From IMG/VR virus record IMGVR_UViG_2751185959_000007: DNA of 13,881 nt; one strand, 5' to 3'. The position numbers were made by a program, and so were the translations under genes. Positions 131 through 6,856 of this stretch are shown here, one piece after another. The notes under the pieces are model-generated. The model saw only the letters and a list, made by a program, of their open reading frames with translations, was not told the DNA's origin and did no database searches. Position 1 is the stretch's first letter. Each line of letters starts with the position of its first letter. Source of the stretch: a virus. Its lineage: Duplodnaviria; Heunggongvirae; Uroviricota; Caudoviricetes.

Positions 131-696
131 TACACAGCCACTGGATCGGTCAACTGATCCTTAACTGATCGGCATTACCCCGAAATGGAGCCGCCTTTCT
201 GAACAGATAACCCGCTGCGCCGTTTGTGTGTGTGATCCCAAACATAAGCACGGGGATGATAGCCGCTATCAGGCTGGTGGGCAATGCAATCAGTCTGGTT
301 CAGTGCGTTGCCATAACTGCGAAGTTCTCTCCTTTGATGAGTATTCTTTAAGGTACTTCTCAAGGGCAAAAGAACACGGCGCGAATCGTTCTGATTCATG
401 CTCTTTCTTTCTGCGTCGTCTTTTTCGTGCAGGTGATGTTTTTTCGGTTGATTCTTCGTTGGTCATTGTGTGCGCCTGTAAAGCAATGCGCCGTAGTACC
501 TCACACCACGGCGCTGATAGTTTTTATCCTTTGGGTTCTATGCCGCGTTGCTGTAATTCTTTGCGGATTATTCGCTTTATCCAGGCAGCAAGAGAATCAT
601 CGCCGTCCTGTTGTTGTGCCTTTTCCATCTTTTCCCGTAAGTCAGGATCTAAACGGAACTGGAACGGAGGATTACCACGCCTTTCGTTTTTGTGTG

Positions 697-4309: not shown

Positions 4310-4611
4310 GCGAACCAAAATTTGGTGAAAAATTTTACAAGCACAACGGACGGATCACGATTCTGCAAATAAGCGCAGCTACACCAGGCTGGTGGGTTGA
4401 AACAGACGAAGGATCCTCACCCGTGGCATCATGGGAGCTTTGTGTGCTTAGTTACCCTGACCGCGATGTGTATCAGGATATTCTGCCTGTGATATCCACT
4501 GACAAAGGCATGAAACCCGTAGACATCAAAAACATGGGGTTTCAGTGCGTAATGCTCACTGAAAAAATGATGGAAGAGATGAAAAAGAACAATGCCGGAT
4601 CGCTTCACTGA
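4306..4611 (+). CDS. Hypothetical protein (101 aa)
   Basis: Track ORF; SD GGAGAGGTGG upstream; coupled to neighbours. Confidence 0.6.
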   Translation: MSEPKFGEKFYKHNGRITILQISAATPGWWVETDEGSSPVASWELCVLSYPDRDVYQDILPVISTDKGMKPVDIKNMGFQCVMLTEKMMEEMKKNNAGSLH

Positions 4612-4620
4612 GGTGGCAAT

Positions 4621-4782
4621 ATGACAGCACAAATTGCAGCTTACGGGCAGCTGGTGGGCGACCCGCTGGTAAAACAGAGCAGCAAGGGCACACCGGAGCC
4701 GCCAACGGAGAACTACGCAGACCTGAGAAATGCAGTAAATCGCACTTACGCAGACATGGGGCTGAGCAAATTAGCAGAGTAG
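4621..4782 (+). CDS. Hypothetical small protein (53 aa)
   Basis: ATG 4621 with SD GAGGTGG at 4610..4616; followed by a strong intrinsic terminator. Confidence 0.45.
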   Translation: MTAQIAAYGQLVGDPLVKQSSKGTPEPPTENYADLRNAVNRTYADMGLSKLAE

Positions 4783-4804
4783 GAATATCAGAACCACACC
4801 ACGC

Positions 4805-4830
4805 AGCCGGAGCAATCCGGCTTTTTGTTA
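4805..4830 (+). terminator. Rho-independent terminator: 7-bp stem AGCCGGA / TCCGGCT with GCAA tetraloop, then T-tract
   Basis: Stem 4805..4811 / 4816..4822, loop 4812..4815, T-run 4822..4826 then GTTATTTTTT. Confidence 0.7.
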
Positions 4831-4871
4831 TTTTTTGTAAATTATTTGTTCGTGGTTGTTCCACGTTGTTC
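4826..4871. repeat. Helically phased direct repeats: TGTTA, TGTAA, TGTTC, TGTTC, TGTTC starting at 4826, 4836, 4847, 4857, 4867 (10 to 11 bp period); last unit reads TGTTCAC
   Basis: Counted in sequence; candidate protein-binding array (terminase, replication or regulator). Confidence 0.5.
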
Positions 4872-4947
4872 ACTGAGCGGATCGGCATATTTTACCCGAA
4901 CTGAATCATGATTATTCTCGCCCGTGGTGCCAGGACGCTGGGGCCAC

Positions 4948-4995
4948 TTTCCCGCCTGTTAATGTGCTCGCCAATATTCATTACCAGGCGGGAAA
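4948..4995. repeat. Large dyad: TTTCCCGCCTGTTAATG / CATTACCAGGCGGGAAA (16 of 17 complementary; outer 11 bp perfect) with 14-bp spacer
   Basis: Base-by-base complementarity of 4948..4964 with 4979..4995. Confidence 0.6.
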
Positions 4996-5048
4996 ACGAT
5001 CGGTGCGATTACTGATTTCCTTATGAAAAACGGTTGAGTGTTTGCCGC

Positions 5049-5085
5049 GTCCTGGAGTTCCTTACTTAACCCCAGGACTTTTTTT
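5049..5085 (+). terminator. Terminator-like hairpin (GTCCTGG-N16-CCAGGAC) followed by T7, ending immediately before the capsid ATG at 5086
   Basis: Stem 5049..5055 / 5072..5078, T-run 5079..5085. The 16-nt loop is long for a canonical terminator; may be a regulated attenuator or a 5' UTR structure. Confidence 0.4.
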
Positions 5086-6243
5086 ATGCAGAGAATAATC
5101 GAATTACGCCAGCAGAAAACCGCCATTAAAAATCAGATGCGCGACATGCTGGAGAACGCTGAAAAAGAAAACCGCAGTCTTAACGATGCTGAGGGCGCAA
5201 AATTTGACGAATTACGCGCTAAAGCTGAATCCCTCGATAAAGACATTTCCCGCCTTGAAGCCATTGCAGACGAAGAGCGCAGCAAGCCAGGTAAAAGCAG
5301 CCAGACCACTGACCCCGCAGAACTACGTAACTACATTCTGACCGGTGAAACCCGCGCATTAAGTACAGGCGTTCCCGCTGATGGTGGTTATACCGTTATC
5401 CCTGAACTGAACACCGAAATCATGCGAATGCTGGCGGATGAATCCACCATGCGTCGCATCTGTACCGTGAAGAAAATCAGCAGCAACGAGTTTAAGCAGC
5501 TTGTTTCCGCTGGCGGTGCGACCGTTAACCACGGTGAAGAGGGTAAGGCACGCGAACAGACCAGCACCCCGCAGATTAACGAGGTGAGCATTAAGCTGTA
5601 TCCGGTCTATGCGTACCCGCGCACCACACAGGAAATCGTGGATTTTTCCGATGTGGACATCCTTTCATGGCTGACGGGTGAGATTGGCGACACCTTCACG
5701 GAAACCGAAGAAAGCGATCTGGTTGTGGGCGACGGTGACAAAAAAGCAAAAGGTTTTTTATCCGTACCCCGTGCAGAGAAGAACGACAAAGAGCGTGATT
5801 TTGGTACGTTGCAGGTAATTAAACCTTCCGAATCTCTGGCGTGGACATCTGCGGACCCGCTGATCGACCTGAAATTTGCATTACGTAAAAAATACCGCAA
5901 AAACGCGGTCTGAGTGGTTAACTCCACGACGGCGGCAAAACTTCAGAAGGTGAAGAACGCGAACGGTGATTATATCTGGCGCGACCGTTTACAGGCGGGT
6001 GATCCTGATACGTTGCTGGGCCTTCCGGTCGAATATCTGGAGTTTATGCCTGATAACGTTATTGCCCTGGGTGACTTCAAACGCGGTTACTACATTGTTG
6101 ATCACGAAACAGGTGTTCGCACCAGACCGGACAACCTGACAGAACCAGGATTCATCAAAATTTTCACGCAAAAATATTTAGGCGGTGGCGTGGTGGATTC
6201 GAACGCGATCAAGATTCTGGCACTGCCGGAAGACGACGATTAA
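5086..6243 (+). pseudogene. HK97-family major capsid protein interrupted by an in-frame TGA at 5911..5913 (N-terminal 275 codons 5086..5910; C-terminal 109 codons 5914..6243; 385 residues if the stop is read through)
   Basis: Track ORFs 5038..5913 and 5914..6243 are in the same frame, separated only by TGA. N-terminus MQRIIELRQQ... is a coiled-coil delta-domain-like region. Context NAV-TGA-VVNSTT is consistent with an ancestral TGG (Trp) codon. Confidence 0.85.
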
Positions 6244-6253
6244 CAGCATACAG

Positions 6254-6281
6254 AAGGGGCTAAAAAGCCCCTTTAGTGTTT
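6254..6281 (+). terminator. Hairpin (8-bp stem AAGGGGCT / AGCCCCTT, loop AAAA) with weak T-rich tail directly after the capsid stop; candidate partial terminator
   Basis: Stem 6254..6261 / 6266..6273, followed by TAGTGTTTT. Confidence 0.45.
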
Positions 6282-6297
6282 TATGGGTGAAAAAATT

Positions 6298-6855
6298 ATG
6301 AAGAGTATGGAAATCCGGTCATCGGAAATCACCACCAGCGGAGCCGGTACGCTGACGGGCTACGTTGTTCGCTGGGATAAGCTTTCAGAACTGTTATGGG
6401 GTGAGTTTTACGAAAAATTCCAGCGGGGGGCGTTTACTGAATGGCTTGCGGCGGGTAATGACGTTCGCGGCCTGTATGAGCATGACCACAGCATGTTACT
6501 GGGGCGCACCCGTTCCGGCACGCTGAAACTGGAAGAGGACGAAACAGGGTTACGCTTTGAACTGACCCCACCGGATACCAGTACAGGGCGCGACGTTATC
6601 GAACTGGTTAAGCGTGGGGACATCTCGGGGATGAGCTTTGGCTTTCGCTCCCGTAAGGATGTATGGGATACCACAACAGATCCATGCGTGCGCACCGTGC
6701 TGGTGGCGGAACTGTACGAAATTACCGTTACATCGGTACCGGCTTACCCCGATTCCGGCGTGGAGCTGGCCCGCCGTTCCCTGTATGAGCAGCACCCCGA
6801 AAAAATGCCGCGTGCGGATAATCGCCGCTGGTGGGCGGATTTAGCGGGGGTGTGA
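6298..6855 (+). CDS. Prohead (head maturation) protease, HK97 family; start may alternatively be 6283 or 6307
   Basis: Sequence resembles HK97-type prohead proteases (…GYVVRWDK…GAF…); sits between capsid and portal genes; stop overlaps portal start. Confidence 0.85.
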   Translation: MKSMEIRSSEITTSGAGTLTGYVVRWDKLSELLWGEFYEKFQRGAFTEWLAAGNDVRGLYEHDHSMLLGRTRSGTLKLEEDETGLRFELTPPDTSTGRDVIELVKRGDISGMSFGFRSRKDVWDTTTDPCVRTVLVAELYEITVTSVPAYPDSGVELARRSLYEQHPEKMPRADNRRWWADLAGV

Positions 6856-6856
6856 T

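What the first reader, a model, noticed from the sequence alone, without database searches (positions are those of the whole stretch)
4843..4870. 18-bp sequence shared between the internal region and the phoQ-proximal junction
TATTTGTT + CCACGTTGTT is contiguous at 12285..12302. The same sequence occurs at 4843..4870 but is interrupted by an extra degenerate unit (CGTGGTTGTT). A second shared 9-mer, CCCGCCTGT, lies near each copy (4951..4959 and 12262..12270). Exact 13-mers are expected by chance at about one per window this size, but the composite match is longer. Possible explanations are att core or recombination scars bounding the head module (4870..12285), or binding sites for the same regulator.
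Basis: seen in the sequence. Interest (0 to 1): 0.5.

Follow-up and report, generated by a model that had tools for sequence, protein, structure and literature searches.

The report
Phased TTGTTC regulator boxes in satellite
The shared 18-mer is part of a set of TTGTTC boxes spaced one DNA turn apart, found at both integration arms of a capsid-forming phage satellite, beside its regulator gene and in front of its capsid operon; they are most likely docking sites for the satellite's AlpA excisionase/activator, not the integration core or a recombination scar.

Summary
TTGTTC occurs three times at a 10-bp period at 4846-4871, and TTGTGT/TTGTTC/TTGTTT at 12278-12303; the two sites share an exact 15-mer.

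The window is a capsid-forming PICI satellite inserted beside phoQ, 99-100% identical to one in Shigella flexneri. The true att core is GGACATATTT (12413-12422). The empty K-12 site has no 18-mer, and the head module ends at 11342, so the att-core and scar readings fail.

In complete relatives the same phased arrays sit at four places: the attL arm just upstream of int, the int-alpA spacer (inverted), upstream of the capsid operon, and the attR arm. Across 55 loci (872 kb), 122 of 125 arrays lie at these positions.

Next to both arm arrays lies a tandem 12-mer (12321-12344). It changes with the integrase and matches the layout of the arm repeats annotated in phage P4, so it is the likely Int arm-type site.

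The TTGTTC arrays stay constant across integrase variants. They are missing from the arms and the capsid-operon upstream region only where the AlpA recognition helix and wing differ.

Best reading (about 0.6): these are AlpA (P4 Vis-like excisionase/regulator) boxes that couple excision with capsid-operon expression. No binding experiment exists. This would be a new member of a known kind.

The parts
4805..4830 (+). Intrinsic terminator closing the replication/perC region. Homology with classical PICIs ends at 4826.
   Evidence: stem 4805-4822 plus T-run; homology to EcCICFT073 ends at 4826
4833..4845 (+). TTTTGTAAATTAT, a conserved motif that opens the packaging module in cf-PICIs of several genera.
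   Evidence: present in Shigella, Rosenbergiella, Citrobacter, Erwinia and IMG/VR relatives
4846..4871 (+). Phased array of three TTGTTC units (4846, 4856, 4866) upstream of the capsid operon. This is the internal copy of the finding and a candidate AlpA box array. The third unit sits at the -35 position of a possible promoter.
   Evidence: Present in 46 of 46 loci where this region is available. Kept in L068, where the flanks diverge.
4888..4893 (+). TATTTT, a candidate -10 hexamer 16 nt after the third unit. This is an inference; the consensus promoter scan found nothing here.
   Evidence: Conserved as TATTTTA at the same distance in L068. No consensus promoter.
4948..4995 (+). Conserved palindrome or RNA hairpin in the operon leader. 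It contains the 9-mer CCCGCCTGT.
   Evidence: I15, 17-nt arms, 94%; stem kept and loop changed in L068
5048..5085 (+). Hairpin plus U7 immediately before the capsid gene ATG (5086). It buries AGGA, the best Shine-Dalgarno match.
   Evidence: fold, z = -4.7 for 4895-5095; conserved in L068
12278..12313 (+). attR-arm phased array: TTGTGT (12278), TTGTTC (12288), TTGTTT (12298) and a degenerate CAGTGC (12308). This is the phoQ-proximal copy of the finding.
   Evidence: An array at this position was detected in 32 of the 55 loci scanned.
12321..12344 (+). Tandem 12-mers GGTGTAGTTAAT and GGTGTAGTCAAT, the likely integrase arm-type sites.
   Evidence: The same pair lies just before int in attL. The pair changes with Int in both arms. 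P4's annotated 'attP arm sequence repeat' pairs have the same layout.
12386..12398 (+). AATCAATGACTTG, which matches the IHF consensus WATCAANNNNTTR and lies between the arm sites and the core. This rests on a consensus match only.
   Evidence: Read; consensus from general knowledge
12413..12422 (+). att core GGACATATTT, overlapping the phoQ stop codon.
   Evidence: same 10-mer at attL and attR of L001; GGGCATATTT in the empty K-12 site
12421..13881 (-). phoQ, the host gene flanking the island.

Best explanation
The 18-mer is not a unit in itself. It is two units of a phased array of TTGTTC hexamers (consensus TTGTTY-SWSR, exact 10-bp period, 3-6 units).

The E. coli/Shigella family of PICI satellites carries such arrays at four defined places:
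- the attL arm, directly followed by a pair of 12-bp integrase arm-type sites and the int start;
- the int-alpA spacer, in inverted orientation;
- the attR arm, again followed by the 12-mer pair;
- in capsid-forming members only, about 20 bp inside the left edge of the HK97-like packaging module, roughly 215 bp upstream of the capsid gene.

I propose that the arrays are the binding sites of the island's 62-aa AlpA protein (Pfam Phage_AlpA, a winged-helix excisionase-type protein homologous to P4 Vis). AlpA would bind head to tail, one protomer per helical turn.
- At the arms it would bend the DNA next to arm-bound Int and drive excision (inferred).
- In the int-alpA spacer it would mediate the published auto-activation of alpA (the activation is shown in the literature; the site is inferred).
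- Upstream of the capsid operon it would switch on capsid and packaging genes, with the third unit occupying the -35 position 16 nt before a conserved TATTTT (inferred).

One induced protein would then couple excision with capsid production. Unit number varies between arrays and between close relatives.
For: Clustering and specificity:
- In the full island L001, TTGTT-N5-TTGTT (up to 1 mismatch) hits 14 times against 2.65 expected, 0 of 100 shuffles. The hits cluster at the four places (sequences).
- Across 55 loci (872 kb), 122 of 125 arrays fall at these four positions.

Footprint:
- In 49 units from 13 distinct arrays, TTGT is invariant although one mismatch was allowed, while the 4-nt spacers vary.
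- Arms of different att types keep the hexamers and phasing but share no flanking sequence.

The arrays are not Int sites:
- The adjacent tandem 12-mer changes in both arms together with Int: GGTGTAGTTAAT in L001; GGTGTAGTCACT in L002 (Int 93%); TGTGTGGTCAGT in L031/L061 (Int 65-67%); TGTGTATTGCA in L065 (Int 44%).
- L008 and L031 share the same AlpA (98%) but differ in Int and in the 12-mer.
- The TTGTTC arrays stay constant throughout.

P4 parallel:
- The P4 record annotates 12-bp 'attP arm sequence repeat' pairs on both sides of the core.
- Directly before the int-proximal pair lie four units at a 10-bp period (TCGTCC, TCTTCC, TTGTCC, AAATCC), then 'atc'. This is the same geometry as TTGTTC x4 + 'atc' + 12-mers in L001.
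- Vis binds P4 attP DNA by EMSA and footprint (PMC2603039). From memory, Cali 2004 places the Vis boxes between int and the core.

Co-variation with AlpA:
- Array-bearing elements keep the helix (S/C)RT(C/T)RY and the wing LGGRSVGW.
- L065 (ANRTFW, IGATAVTY) lacks arrays in both arms and upstream of the capsid gene.

Literature:
- AlpA activates its own promoter, and its overexpression triggers excision and replication of EcCICFT073 (PMC6092414).
- alpA is required for cf-PICI induction, and its overexpression is used to produce cf-PICI capsids.
- A Vibrio PICMI AlpA is sufficient for excision and resembles TorI/Xis (PMC10803314).
- RDFs bind direct repeats one helical turn apart, and several (186 Apl, P2 Cox, RdfS) also act at promoters (PMC7498355; PMC11963761).
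Against: - No binding data exist for any PICI AlpA.
- The arrays do not change between the two AlpA types, which are 57% identical. The co-variation evidence therefore rests on one contrasting lineage (L062/L065), and that lineage also lacks PerC.
- Fillol-Salom 2018 found no AlpA effect on Pint in EcCICFT073, although an array sits just upstream of int.
- The int-alpA array is inverted and about 300 bp from alpA, an odd geometry for simple activation.
- Classical PICIs with the same AlpA have no array before their packaging genes.
- The consensus scan finds no promoter at 4780-5090.
- Any transcript from there must pass a hairpin plus U7 before the capsid ATG.
Confidence: 0.6

Rival explanations
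1. The TTGTTC arrays are the integrase arm-type sites, bound by the N-terminal Arm-DNA-bind_3 domain. The copies outside att are Int-controlled operators.
For: - Int has an arm-binding domain.
- Arrays flank the core in both arms in direct orientation.
- P4 Int is reported to repress its own promoter (title of Piazzolla 2006, cited).
Against: - The neighbouring tandem 12-mers co-vary with Int and match the layout of the arm repeats annotated in P4.
- The arrays are unchanged from 100% down to 65% Int identity.
- Two of the four positions lie 1.4 kb and 7.5 kb from the core and have no 12-mers nearby.
Confidence: 0.12
2. The arrays bind some other factor: a host protein that recognises phased direct repeats (an OmpR/PhoB-class response regulator or a nucleoid protein), or another island protein such as PerC.
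For: - The arrays are invariant across both AlpA types.
- PerC is present in array-bearing lineages and absent from L062/L065 and L011-L014.
- The island sits beside phoPQ.
Against: - The PhoP box is a hexamer repeat with an 11-bp period and a different sequence (general knowledge), whereas these arrays have an exact 10-bp period.
- The arrays follow the island to unrelated integration sites.
- The fixed geometry next to the Int sites, the same as in P4, argues for a recombination partner.
- In this window PerC is reduced to a fused C-terminal fragment, yet the arrays are intact.
Confidence: 0.15
3. The two copies are att cores or scars of site-specific or homologous recombination that delimit, or once delivered, the head module.
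For: - The internal copy lies only about 20 bp inside the left boundary of the capsid-forming module.
- The preprint describes variable regions before and after the packaging module.
Against: - The empty site lacks the 18-mer, and the true core is GGACATATTT at 12413-12422.
- The right boundary of the module is at 11342, not 12285.
- Classical PICIs have the attR array but no array at their module junction.
- No Int 12-mers accompany the internal copy.
Confidence: 0.03
4. Chance similarity or low-complexity T/G-rich sequence with no function.
For: An exact 15-mer shared within 13.9 kb has a chance expectation of roughly 0.1-0.2 (my estimate).
Against: - 0 of 200 and 0 of 100 shuffles reach the observed counts.
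- 122 of 125 arrays in 872 kb lie at four homologous positions.
- The hexamers are conserved while the spacers and flanks diverge.
Confidence: 0.02

Closest known systems
Satellite phage P4 Vis (ORF88) and its boxes in attP and at the late promoter PLL
   Same: - Vis is an AlpA-family protein (aligned) encoded by a satellite with a P4-type integrase.
- P4 attP has tandem 12-bp arm repeats on both sides of the core. A four-unit, 10-bp phased array follows, then 'atc', directly before the int-proximal pair. This is the geometry seen here.
- Vis acts both as excisionase and as a regulator of late promoters (titles and text; partly from memory).
   Different: - The unit sequence differs (T(T/C)GTCC-like in P4, TTGTTC here).
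- I could see a phased array only on the int side of P4 attP, whereas the PICIs have one in both arms.
- P4 has no capsid operon; here the extra array precedes an HK97-like capsid/terminase operon.
- I identified the P4 array by eye. I could not check that it equals the Vis boxes.
Coliphage 186 Apl and P2 Cox operators
   Same: One small protein serves as both recombination directionality factor and transcription regulator. It binds 5-7 direct repeats spaced 10-11 bp apart, both at att and at promoters (PMC7498355).
   Different: - Apl and Cox belong to other sequence families.
- At promoters they repress a lysis-lysogeny switch. Here the known role of AlpA is activation.
- The sites are different sequences.
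Lambda Xis X1-X1.5-X2 and ICEMlSym RdfS
   Same: These are winged-helix RDFs that oligomerise head to tail on phased sites next to Int arm-type sites. RdfS also binds its own promoter and stimulates intS (PMC11963761). The IntS arm consensus TGKTGGTATC resembles the 12-mer core TGGTGTAGT found here.
   Different: - Lambda Xis sites are in one arm only and have no promoter role of this kind.
- RdfS sites show no clear consensus, whereas TTGT is invariant here.
Pseudomonas aeruginosa AlpA antiterminator and its ABE (GGGACG)
   Same: The name only, plus the fact that its target operon has a terminator in the leader.
   Different: It is an unrelated, much larger Q-like protein that binds a single 6-bp element between -35 and -10 (PMC9371919). 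It is not a model for the 62-aa PICI AlpA.

Membership tests
Operator arrays of winged-helix recombination directionality factors (Xis/Vis/Apl/Cox type) | Three or more direct repeats spaced about one helical turn apart | tested here: met
   Exact 10-bp period with 3-6 units
Operator arrays of winged-helix recombination directionality factors (Xis/Vis/Apl/Cox type) | Located in an att arm next to integrase arm-type sites | tested here: met
   In both arms the array is followed within 3-13 nt by the tandem 12-mers that co-vary with Int
Operator arrays of winged-helix recombination directionality factors (Xis/Vis/Apl/Cox type) | A cognate small wHTH RDF gene is present in the element | tested here: met
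   The alpA gene of complete relatives matches Pfam PF05930 at E = 5e-17. It also matches PDB 8c3t, an AlpA-family protein. alpA itself lies outside the window.
Operator arrays of winged-helix recombination directionality factors (Xis/Vis/Apl/Cox type) | The protein binds and bends these sites and is needed for excision | not testable with these tools
   Indirect only: AlpA overexpression causes excision in EcCICFT073 and PICMI
Operator arrays of winged-helix recombination directionality factors (Xis/Vis/Apl/Cox type) | Site sequence co-varies with the protein's DNA-reading residues | tested here: inconclusive
   Arrays are absent where the helix and wing differ (L065). This is one lineage only, and the two AlpA types that have arrays share the reading residues.
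Integrase arm-type sites | Sequence changes with the integrase arm-binding domain | tested here: not met
   TTGTTC is constant over Int identities of 65-100%. The 12-mers change instead.
att core / direct repeats bounding the element | The same sequence lies at both island-host junctions, with one copy in the empty site | tested here: not met
   The junction repeat is GGACATATTT. The K-12 empty site has GGGCATATTT and no 18-mer.
Capsid-forming PICI (cf-PICI) | PICI backbone (int, alpA, pri-rep) plus its own HK97-type capsid, protease, portal, connectors, HNH, TerS and TerL | tested here: met
   Annotation of near-identical islands. The window matches Pri, MCP, TerL and the 93-aa protein. int and alpA lie left of the window (L010). 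The capsid gene here carries a nonsense codon.

The most novel reading that the evidence does not exclude
The TTGTTC array acts as a portable 'AlpA cassette'. By sitting at the left edge of a phage-derived HK97-like head and packaging module, it wires that module to the same protein that triggers excision. This would explain how capsid-forming PICIs make filled capsids as soon as AlpA appears, even without a helper phage. Arrays that grow or shrink in 10-bp units (3-6 units among close relatives) would tune that response.
Probability: 0.4. Interest if true: 0.55.

Novelty: new member of a known kind. Interest (0 to 1): 0.42.

Why it matters
AlpA is described as the master switch of Gram-negative PICIs. 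However, the papers I could search report no AlpA binding site, and none describes how the capsid operon of cf-PICIs is turned on.

A defined 10-bp phased box at four specific positions gives directly testable targets:
- which promoters AlpA controls;
- whether AlpA is also the excisionase;
- how a satellite placed a captured phage head module under its own control.

The analysis also separates the probable Int arm-type sites (tandem 12-mers) from the RDF-type sites. This helps in annotating att sites of P4-type integrases.

Tried and rejected
- P. aeruginosa AlpA/ABE antitermination as a model. It is an unrelated, larger protein with a single 6-bp site.
- PhoP or other response-regulator boxes, considered because of the phoPQ neighbourhood. 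The period and sequence do not fit, and the arrays follow the island to other loci.
- A cos or TerS recognition site. By analogy with the HK97 gene order (recalled from general knowledge, not checked here), I expect cos in the HNH-terS gap, and four copies including the att arms do not fit cos. This was not tested directly.
- CCCGCCTGT as a second shared element. It is not conserved at attR. At 4951 it belongs to a leader palindrome.
- A search for a matching array with a different unit in distant cf-PICIs. TACCC x3 occupies the same slot after TTTTGTAAATTAT in the Erwinia and Rosenbergiella elements, but no second copy was found elsewhere in those loci, so this gave no co-variation test.
- Rfam on the whole window: no family.
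- NCBIfam and Pfam on small ORFs near the right end: nothing.
The 5-sequence version returned mostly close relatives.

Full report
**1. The observation**

Reading the window confirms the finding. TATTTGTT-CGTGGTTGTT-CCACGTTGTT lies at 4843-4870 and TATTTGTTCCACGTTGTT at 12285-12302. They share the exact 15-mer TTGTTCCACGTTGTT.

The 18-mer with up to 3 mismatches hits three times against 0.03 expected, and 0 of 200 shuffles reach that count.

Both sites are runs of TTGTTC-like hexamers with an exact 10-bp period:
- TTGTTC at 4846, 4856 and 4866;
- TTGTGT, TTGTTC and TTGTTT at 12278, 12288 and 12298, followed by a degenerate CAGTGC.

So the 'inserted degenerate unit' is simply one more unit of a phased array. 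The repeat finder also aligns the sites without a gap, at 71% over 38 nt.

The second shared word, CCCGCCTGT, is real but the pairing is probably coincidental. Near attR it is not conserved in relatives. At 4951 it is half of a conserved 17-nt palindrome (I15).

**2. Context**

The window is a capsid-forming PICI (cf-PICI) inserted between roxA and phoQ.
- Near-identical islands in complete E. coli genomes are annotated with: integrase, AlpA-type HTH regulator, primase, SSB, PerC, HK97-type major capsid protein, protease, portal, head closure protein, connector, HNH, TerS, TerL, a 93-aa protein, then phoQ.
- The window is 99-100% identical to the island of Shigella flexneri SFBU1023.
- int and alpA lie to the left of the window.

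**3. The att-core and scar ideas**

- Both junctions of the complete island L001 carry GGACATATTT.
- The island-free K-12 spacer reads GGGCATATTT and contains nothing like the 18-mer.
- In the window the core is at 12413-12422 and overlaps the phoQ stop codon.
- The attR-arm segment with the 18-mer is found in 886 of 5426 E. coli genomes, close to the 904 that have this alpA. The window query, which includes phoQ, matched in all 5426 genomes.
- The same segment ends islands inserted in tqsA, at cspD/clpS and at a further site. It is therefore island DNA lying about 110 bp inside attR.
- Compared with the classical PICI EcCICFT073 at the same locus, homology stops at 4826 and resumes at 11343. 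The head module is thus 4827-11342. The internal array lies about 20 bp inside its left edge, but the right-hand copy is about 940 bp beyond its right edge.
- Classical PICIs have no array at their own module junction.

**4. More copies in complete relatives**

In L001, TTGTT-N5-TTGTT (up to 1 mismatch) occurs 14 times against 2.65 expected, 0 of 100 shuffles. The hits cluster at four places:
- the attL arm, 55-89 bp upstream of the int start: TTGTTC, TTGTTT, TTGTAG, TTGTGC;
- the int-alpA spacer on the minus strand: five units, about 300 bp upstream of alpA, plus a weaker phased AACAA/CACAA run just 5' of alpA;
- upstream of the capsid operon;
- the attR arm.

Across 55 E. coli/Shigella-type loci (872 kb), my scan found 125 arrays, and 122 lie at these four positions. 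These include 46 of 46 loci in which the capsid-upstream region is available.

In 49 units from 13 distinct arrays, TTGT is invariant although one mismatch was allowed. Position 5 is T in 80% and position 6 is C or T in 92%. The four spacer bases vary.

Arms belonging to different integration types share the phased hexamers but not their flanks. Unit number ranges from 3 to 6 among close relatives.

**5. Separating two kinds of site in the arms**

In both arms the array is followed, after 3-13 nt, by a tandem 12-mer. In attL this pair ends 22 nt before the int ATG.

The 12-mer changes in both arms together with the integrase:

| Locus | Int identity to L001 | 12-mer |
|---|---|---|
| L001 | 100% | GGTGTAGTTAAT |
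| L002 (tqsA site) | 93% | GGTGTAGTCACT |
| L008 | 76% | GGTGTAGTYAAT |
| L031 / L061 | 65-67% | TGTGTGGTCAGT |
| L065 | 44% | TGTGTATTGCA |

L008 and L031 carry the same AlpA (98%) but different Int and different 12-mers.

The GenBank record of satellite phage P4, whose Int is of the same type, annotates exactly this layout. Pairs of 12-bp 'attP arm sequence repeats' lie on each side of the core, and the int-proximal pair is just upstream of int.

I therefore assign the 12-mers (window 12321-12344) as the integrase arm-type sites. The TTGTTC arrays do not change with Int, so they are something else.

**6. What binds the arrays**

The geometry is that of recombination directionality factors. 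These bind direct repeats one helical turn apart, next to arm-bound integrase. This is stated as a general rule for Xis, Cox, Apl and others in PMC7498355 and illustrated by RdfS in PMC11963761.

The element's only protein of that class is AlpA: 62 aa, Pfam Phage_AlpA at E = 5e-17, related to PDB 8c3t.

In P4, directly before the int-proximal 12-mer pair, I find TCGTCC, TCTTCC, TTGTCC and AAATCC at a 10-bp period, followed by 'atc'. This is the same arrangement as TTGTTC x4 + 'atc' + 12-mers in L001.
- P4 Vis, an AlpA homologue, binds attP DNA (PMC2603039).
- From my memory of Cali et al. 2004, Vis binds at two boxes between int and the core, and it also regulates the P4 late promoters.

Published work on PICIs fits a dual role:
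- AlpA activates its own promoter, and its overexpression causes excision and replication of EcCICFT073 (PMC6092414).
- alpA is required for cf-PICI induction, and its overexpression is used to produce EcCIEDL933 capsids.
- A Vibrio PICMI AlpA is sufficient for excision and resembles TorI/Xis.

Co-variation is limited but in the right direction. Every array-bearing element keeps the helix (S/C)RT(C/T)RY and the wing LGGRSVGW. The L062/L065 lineage (ANRTFW, IGATAVTY) has Int 12-mers in both arms but no TTGTTC array there or before its capsid gene.

**7. The internal copy**

At 4846-4871 there are no Int 12-mers, so a recombination role is unlikely.

The array follows a terminator and a motif, TTTTGTAAATTAT (4833-4845), that opens the packaging module in cf-PICIs of several genera.

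In L068 the capsid protein is only 69% identical and the surrounding DNA has diverged. Even so, the three units and a TATTTTA 16 nt after the third unit are retained. I infer a weak promoter in which the third unit takes the -35 position and units 1-2 lie upstream, activated by AlpA. This inference is weak:
- The consensus scan finds no promoter there.
- The 190-nt leader is highly structured (z = -4.7) and ends in a hairpin plus U7 right before the capsid ATG.

In elements with the second AlpA type (L008, L031), a plus-strand array directly follows alpA, ahead of the next gene. This is another promoter-proximal position.

**8. Weak points**

- There is no binding experiment.
- The arrays are identical for two AlpA types that are 57% identical.
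- The single contrasting lineage also lacks PerC.
- AlpA did not affect Pint in EcCICFT073.
- The int-alpA array is inverted and distant from alpA.
- Classical PICIs with the same AlpA lack an array before their packaging genes.

I put about 0.9 on 'functional phased protein-binding arrays of the island's recombination and regulation system, not an att core or scar', and about 0.6 on AlpA as the binder.

**9. Novelty**

Dual-purpose RDF operators are well known (P4 Vis, 186 Apl, P2 Cox, RdfS). In the papers I could search, no AlpA site and no control element of the cf-PICI packaging operon is described.

This is a new member of a known kind. It offers a testable link between excision and capsid production in cf-PICIs.

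Noticed in passing
window 5911-5913 (capsid gene 5086-6243): The major capsid gene carries a TGG-to-TGA nonsense codon at position 276. The same codon is in Shigella flexneri SFBU1023 (L010), whereas E. coli relatives have Trp. This copy of the satellite probably cannot build capsids.
   Followed up: yes
window 4610-4826 (ORF 4621-4782): Relative to EcCICFT073, about 504 bp are missing. This fuses the 5' end of ssb to the 3' end of perC, so neither SSB nor PerC is intact here. The terminator and the TTGTTC array that follow are unchanged.
   Followed up: partly
window 11874-11908: A second, unrelated phased array: GTGAC x4 at a 10-11 bp period, in the variable region between the 93-aa gene and the attR arm. 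It is also present in L001 and L010. No binder is suggested.
   Followed up: no
window 4895-5085: The capsid-operon leader folds far better than shuffles (z = -4.7). It contains a palindrome/hairpin at 4948-4995 and a hairpin plus U7 at 5048-5085 that buries AGGA just before the ATG. In L068 both stems are conserved while the loops differ, which suggests attenuation or translational control.
   Followed up: partly
window 4833-4845; L011, L012, L013, L062, L065 upstream of the capsid gene: TTTTGTAAATTAT marks the start of the packaging module in cf-PICIs from Shigella, Rosenbergiella, Citrobacter and Erwinia. In the Erwinia and Rosenbergiella elements it is followed by TACCC x3 at a 10-bp period plus a terminator, instead of TTGTTC x3.
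   Followed up: partly
window 267-282, 10951-10966 and (inverted) 12142-12159: The 16-18-nt motif TATCAGGCTGGTGGGC recurs three times: downstream of the alpA region, inside terL, and inverted at the right end. Similar words appear at the same two island positions in other PICIs. Unexplained.
   Followed up: no
window 11931-12107, minus strand: A small hydrophobic ORF (58 aa, MMIQMCTFST...VVIMTVQPVTLIRIFR) lies in the right-end variable region and is conserved in relatives. It has no Pfam or NCBIfam match. It could be a small membrane or toxin-like peptide.
   Followed up: partly
L001 5337-5381 and homologous int-alpA spacers (L082-L148): The inverted array in the int-alpA spacer has 3, 5 or 6 units in otherwise close relatives. 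In some islands it contains the exact 25-mer found upstream of the capsid operon. This suggests gain and loss in 10-bp steps, or exchange between arrays.
   Followed up: partly
window 12386-12398: AATCAATGACTTG matches the IHF consensus WATCAANNNNTTR. It lies between the Int 12-mers and the att core, where a bending site would be expected.
   Followed up: no
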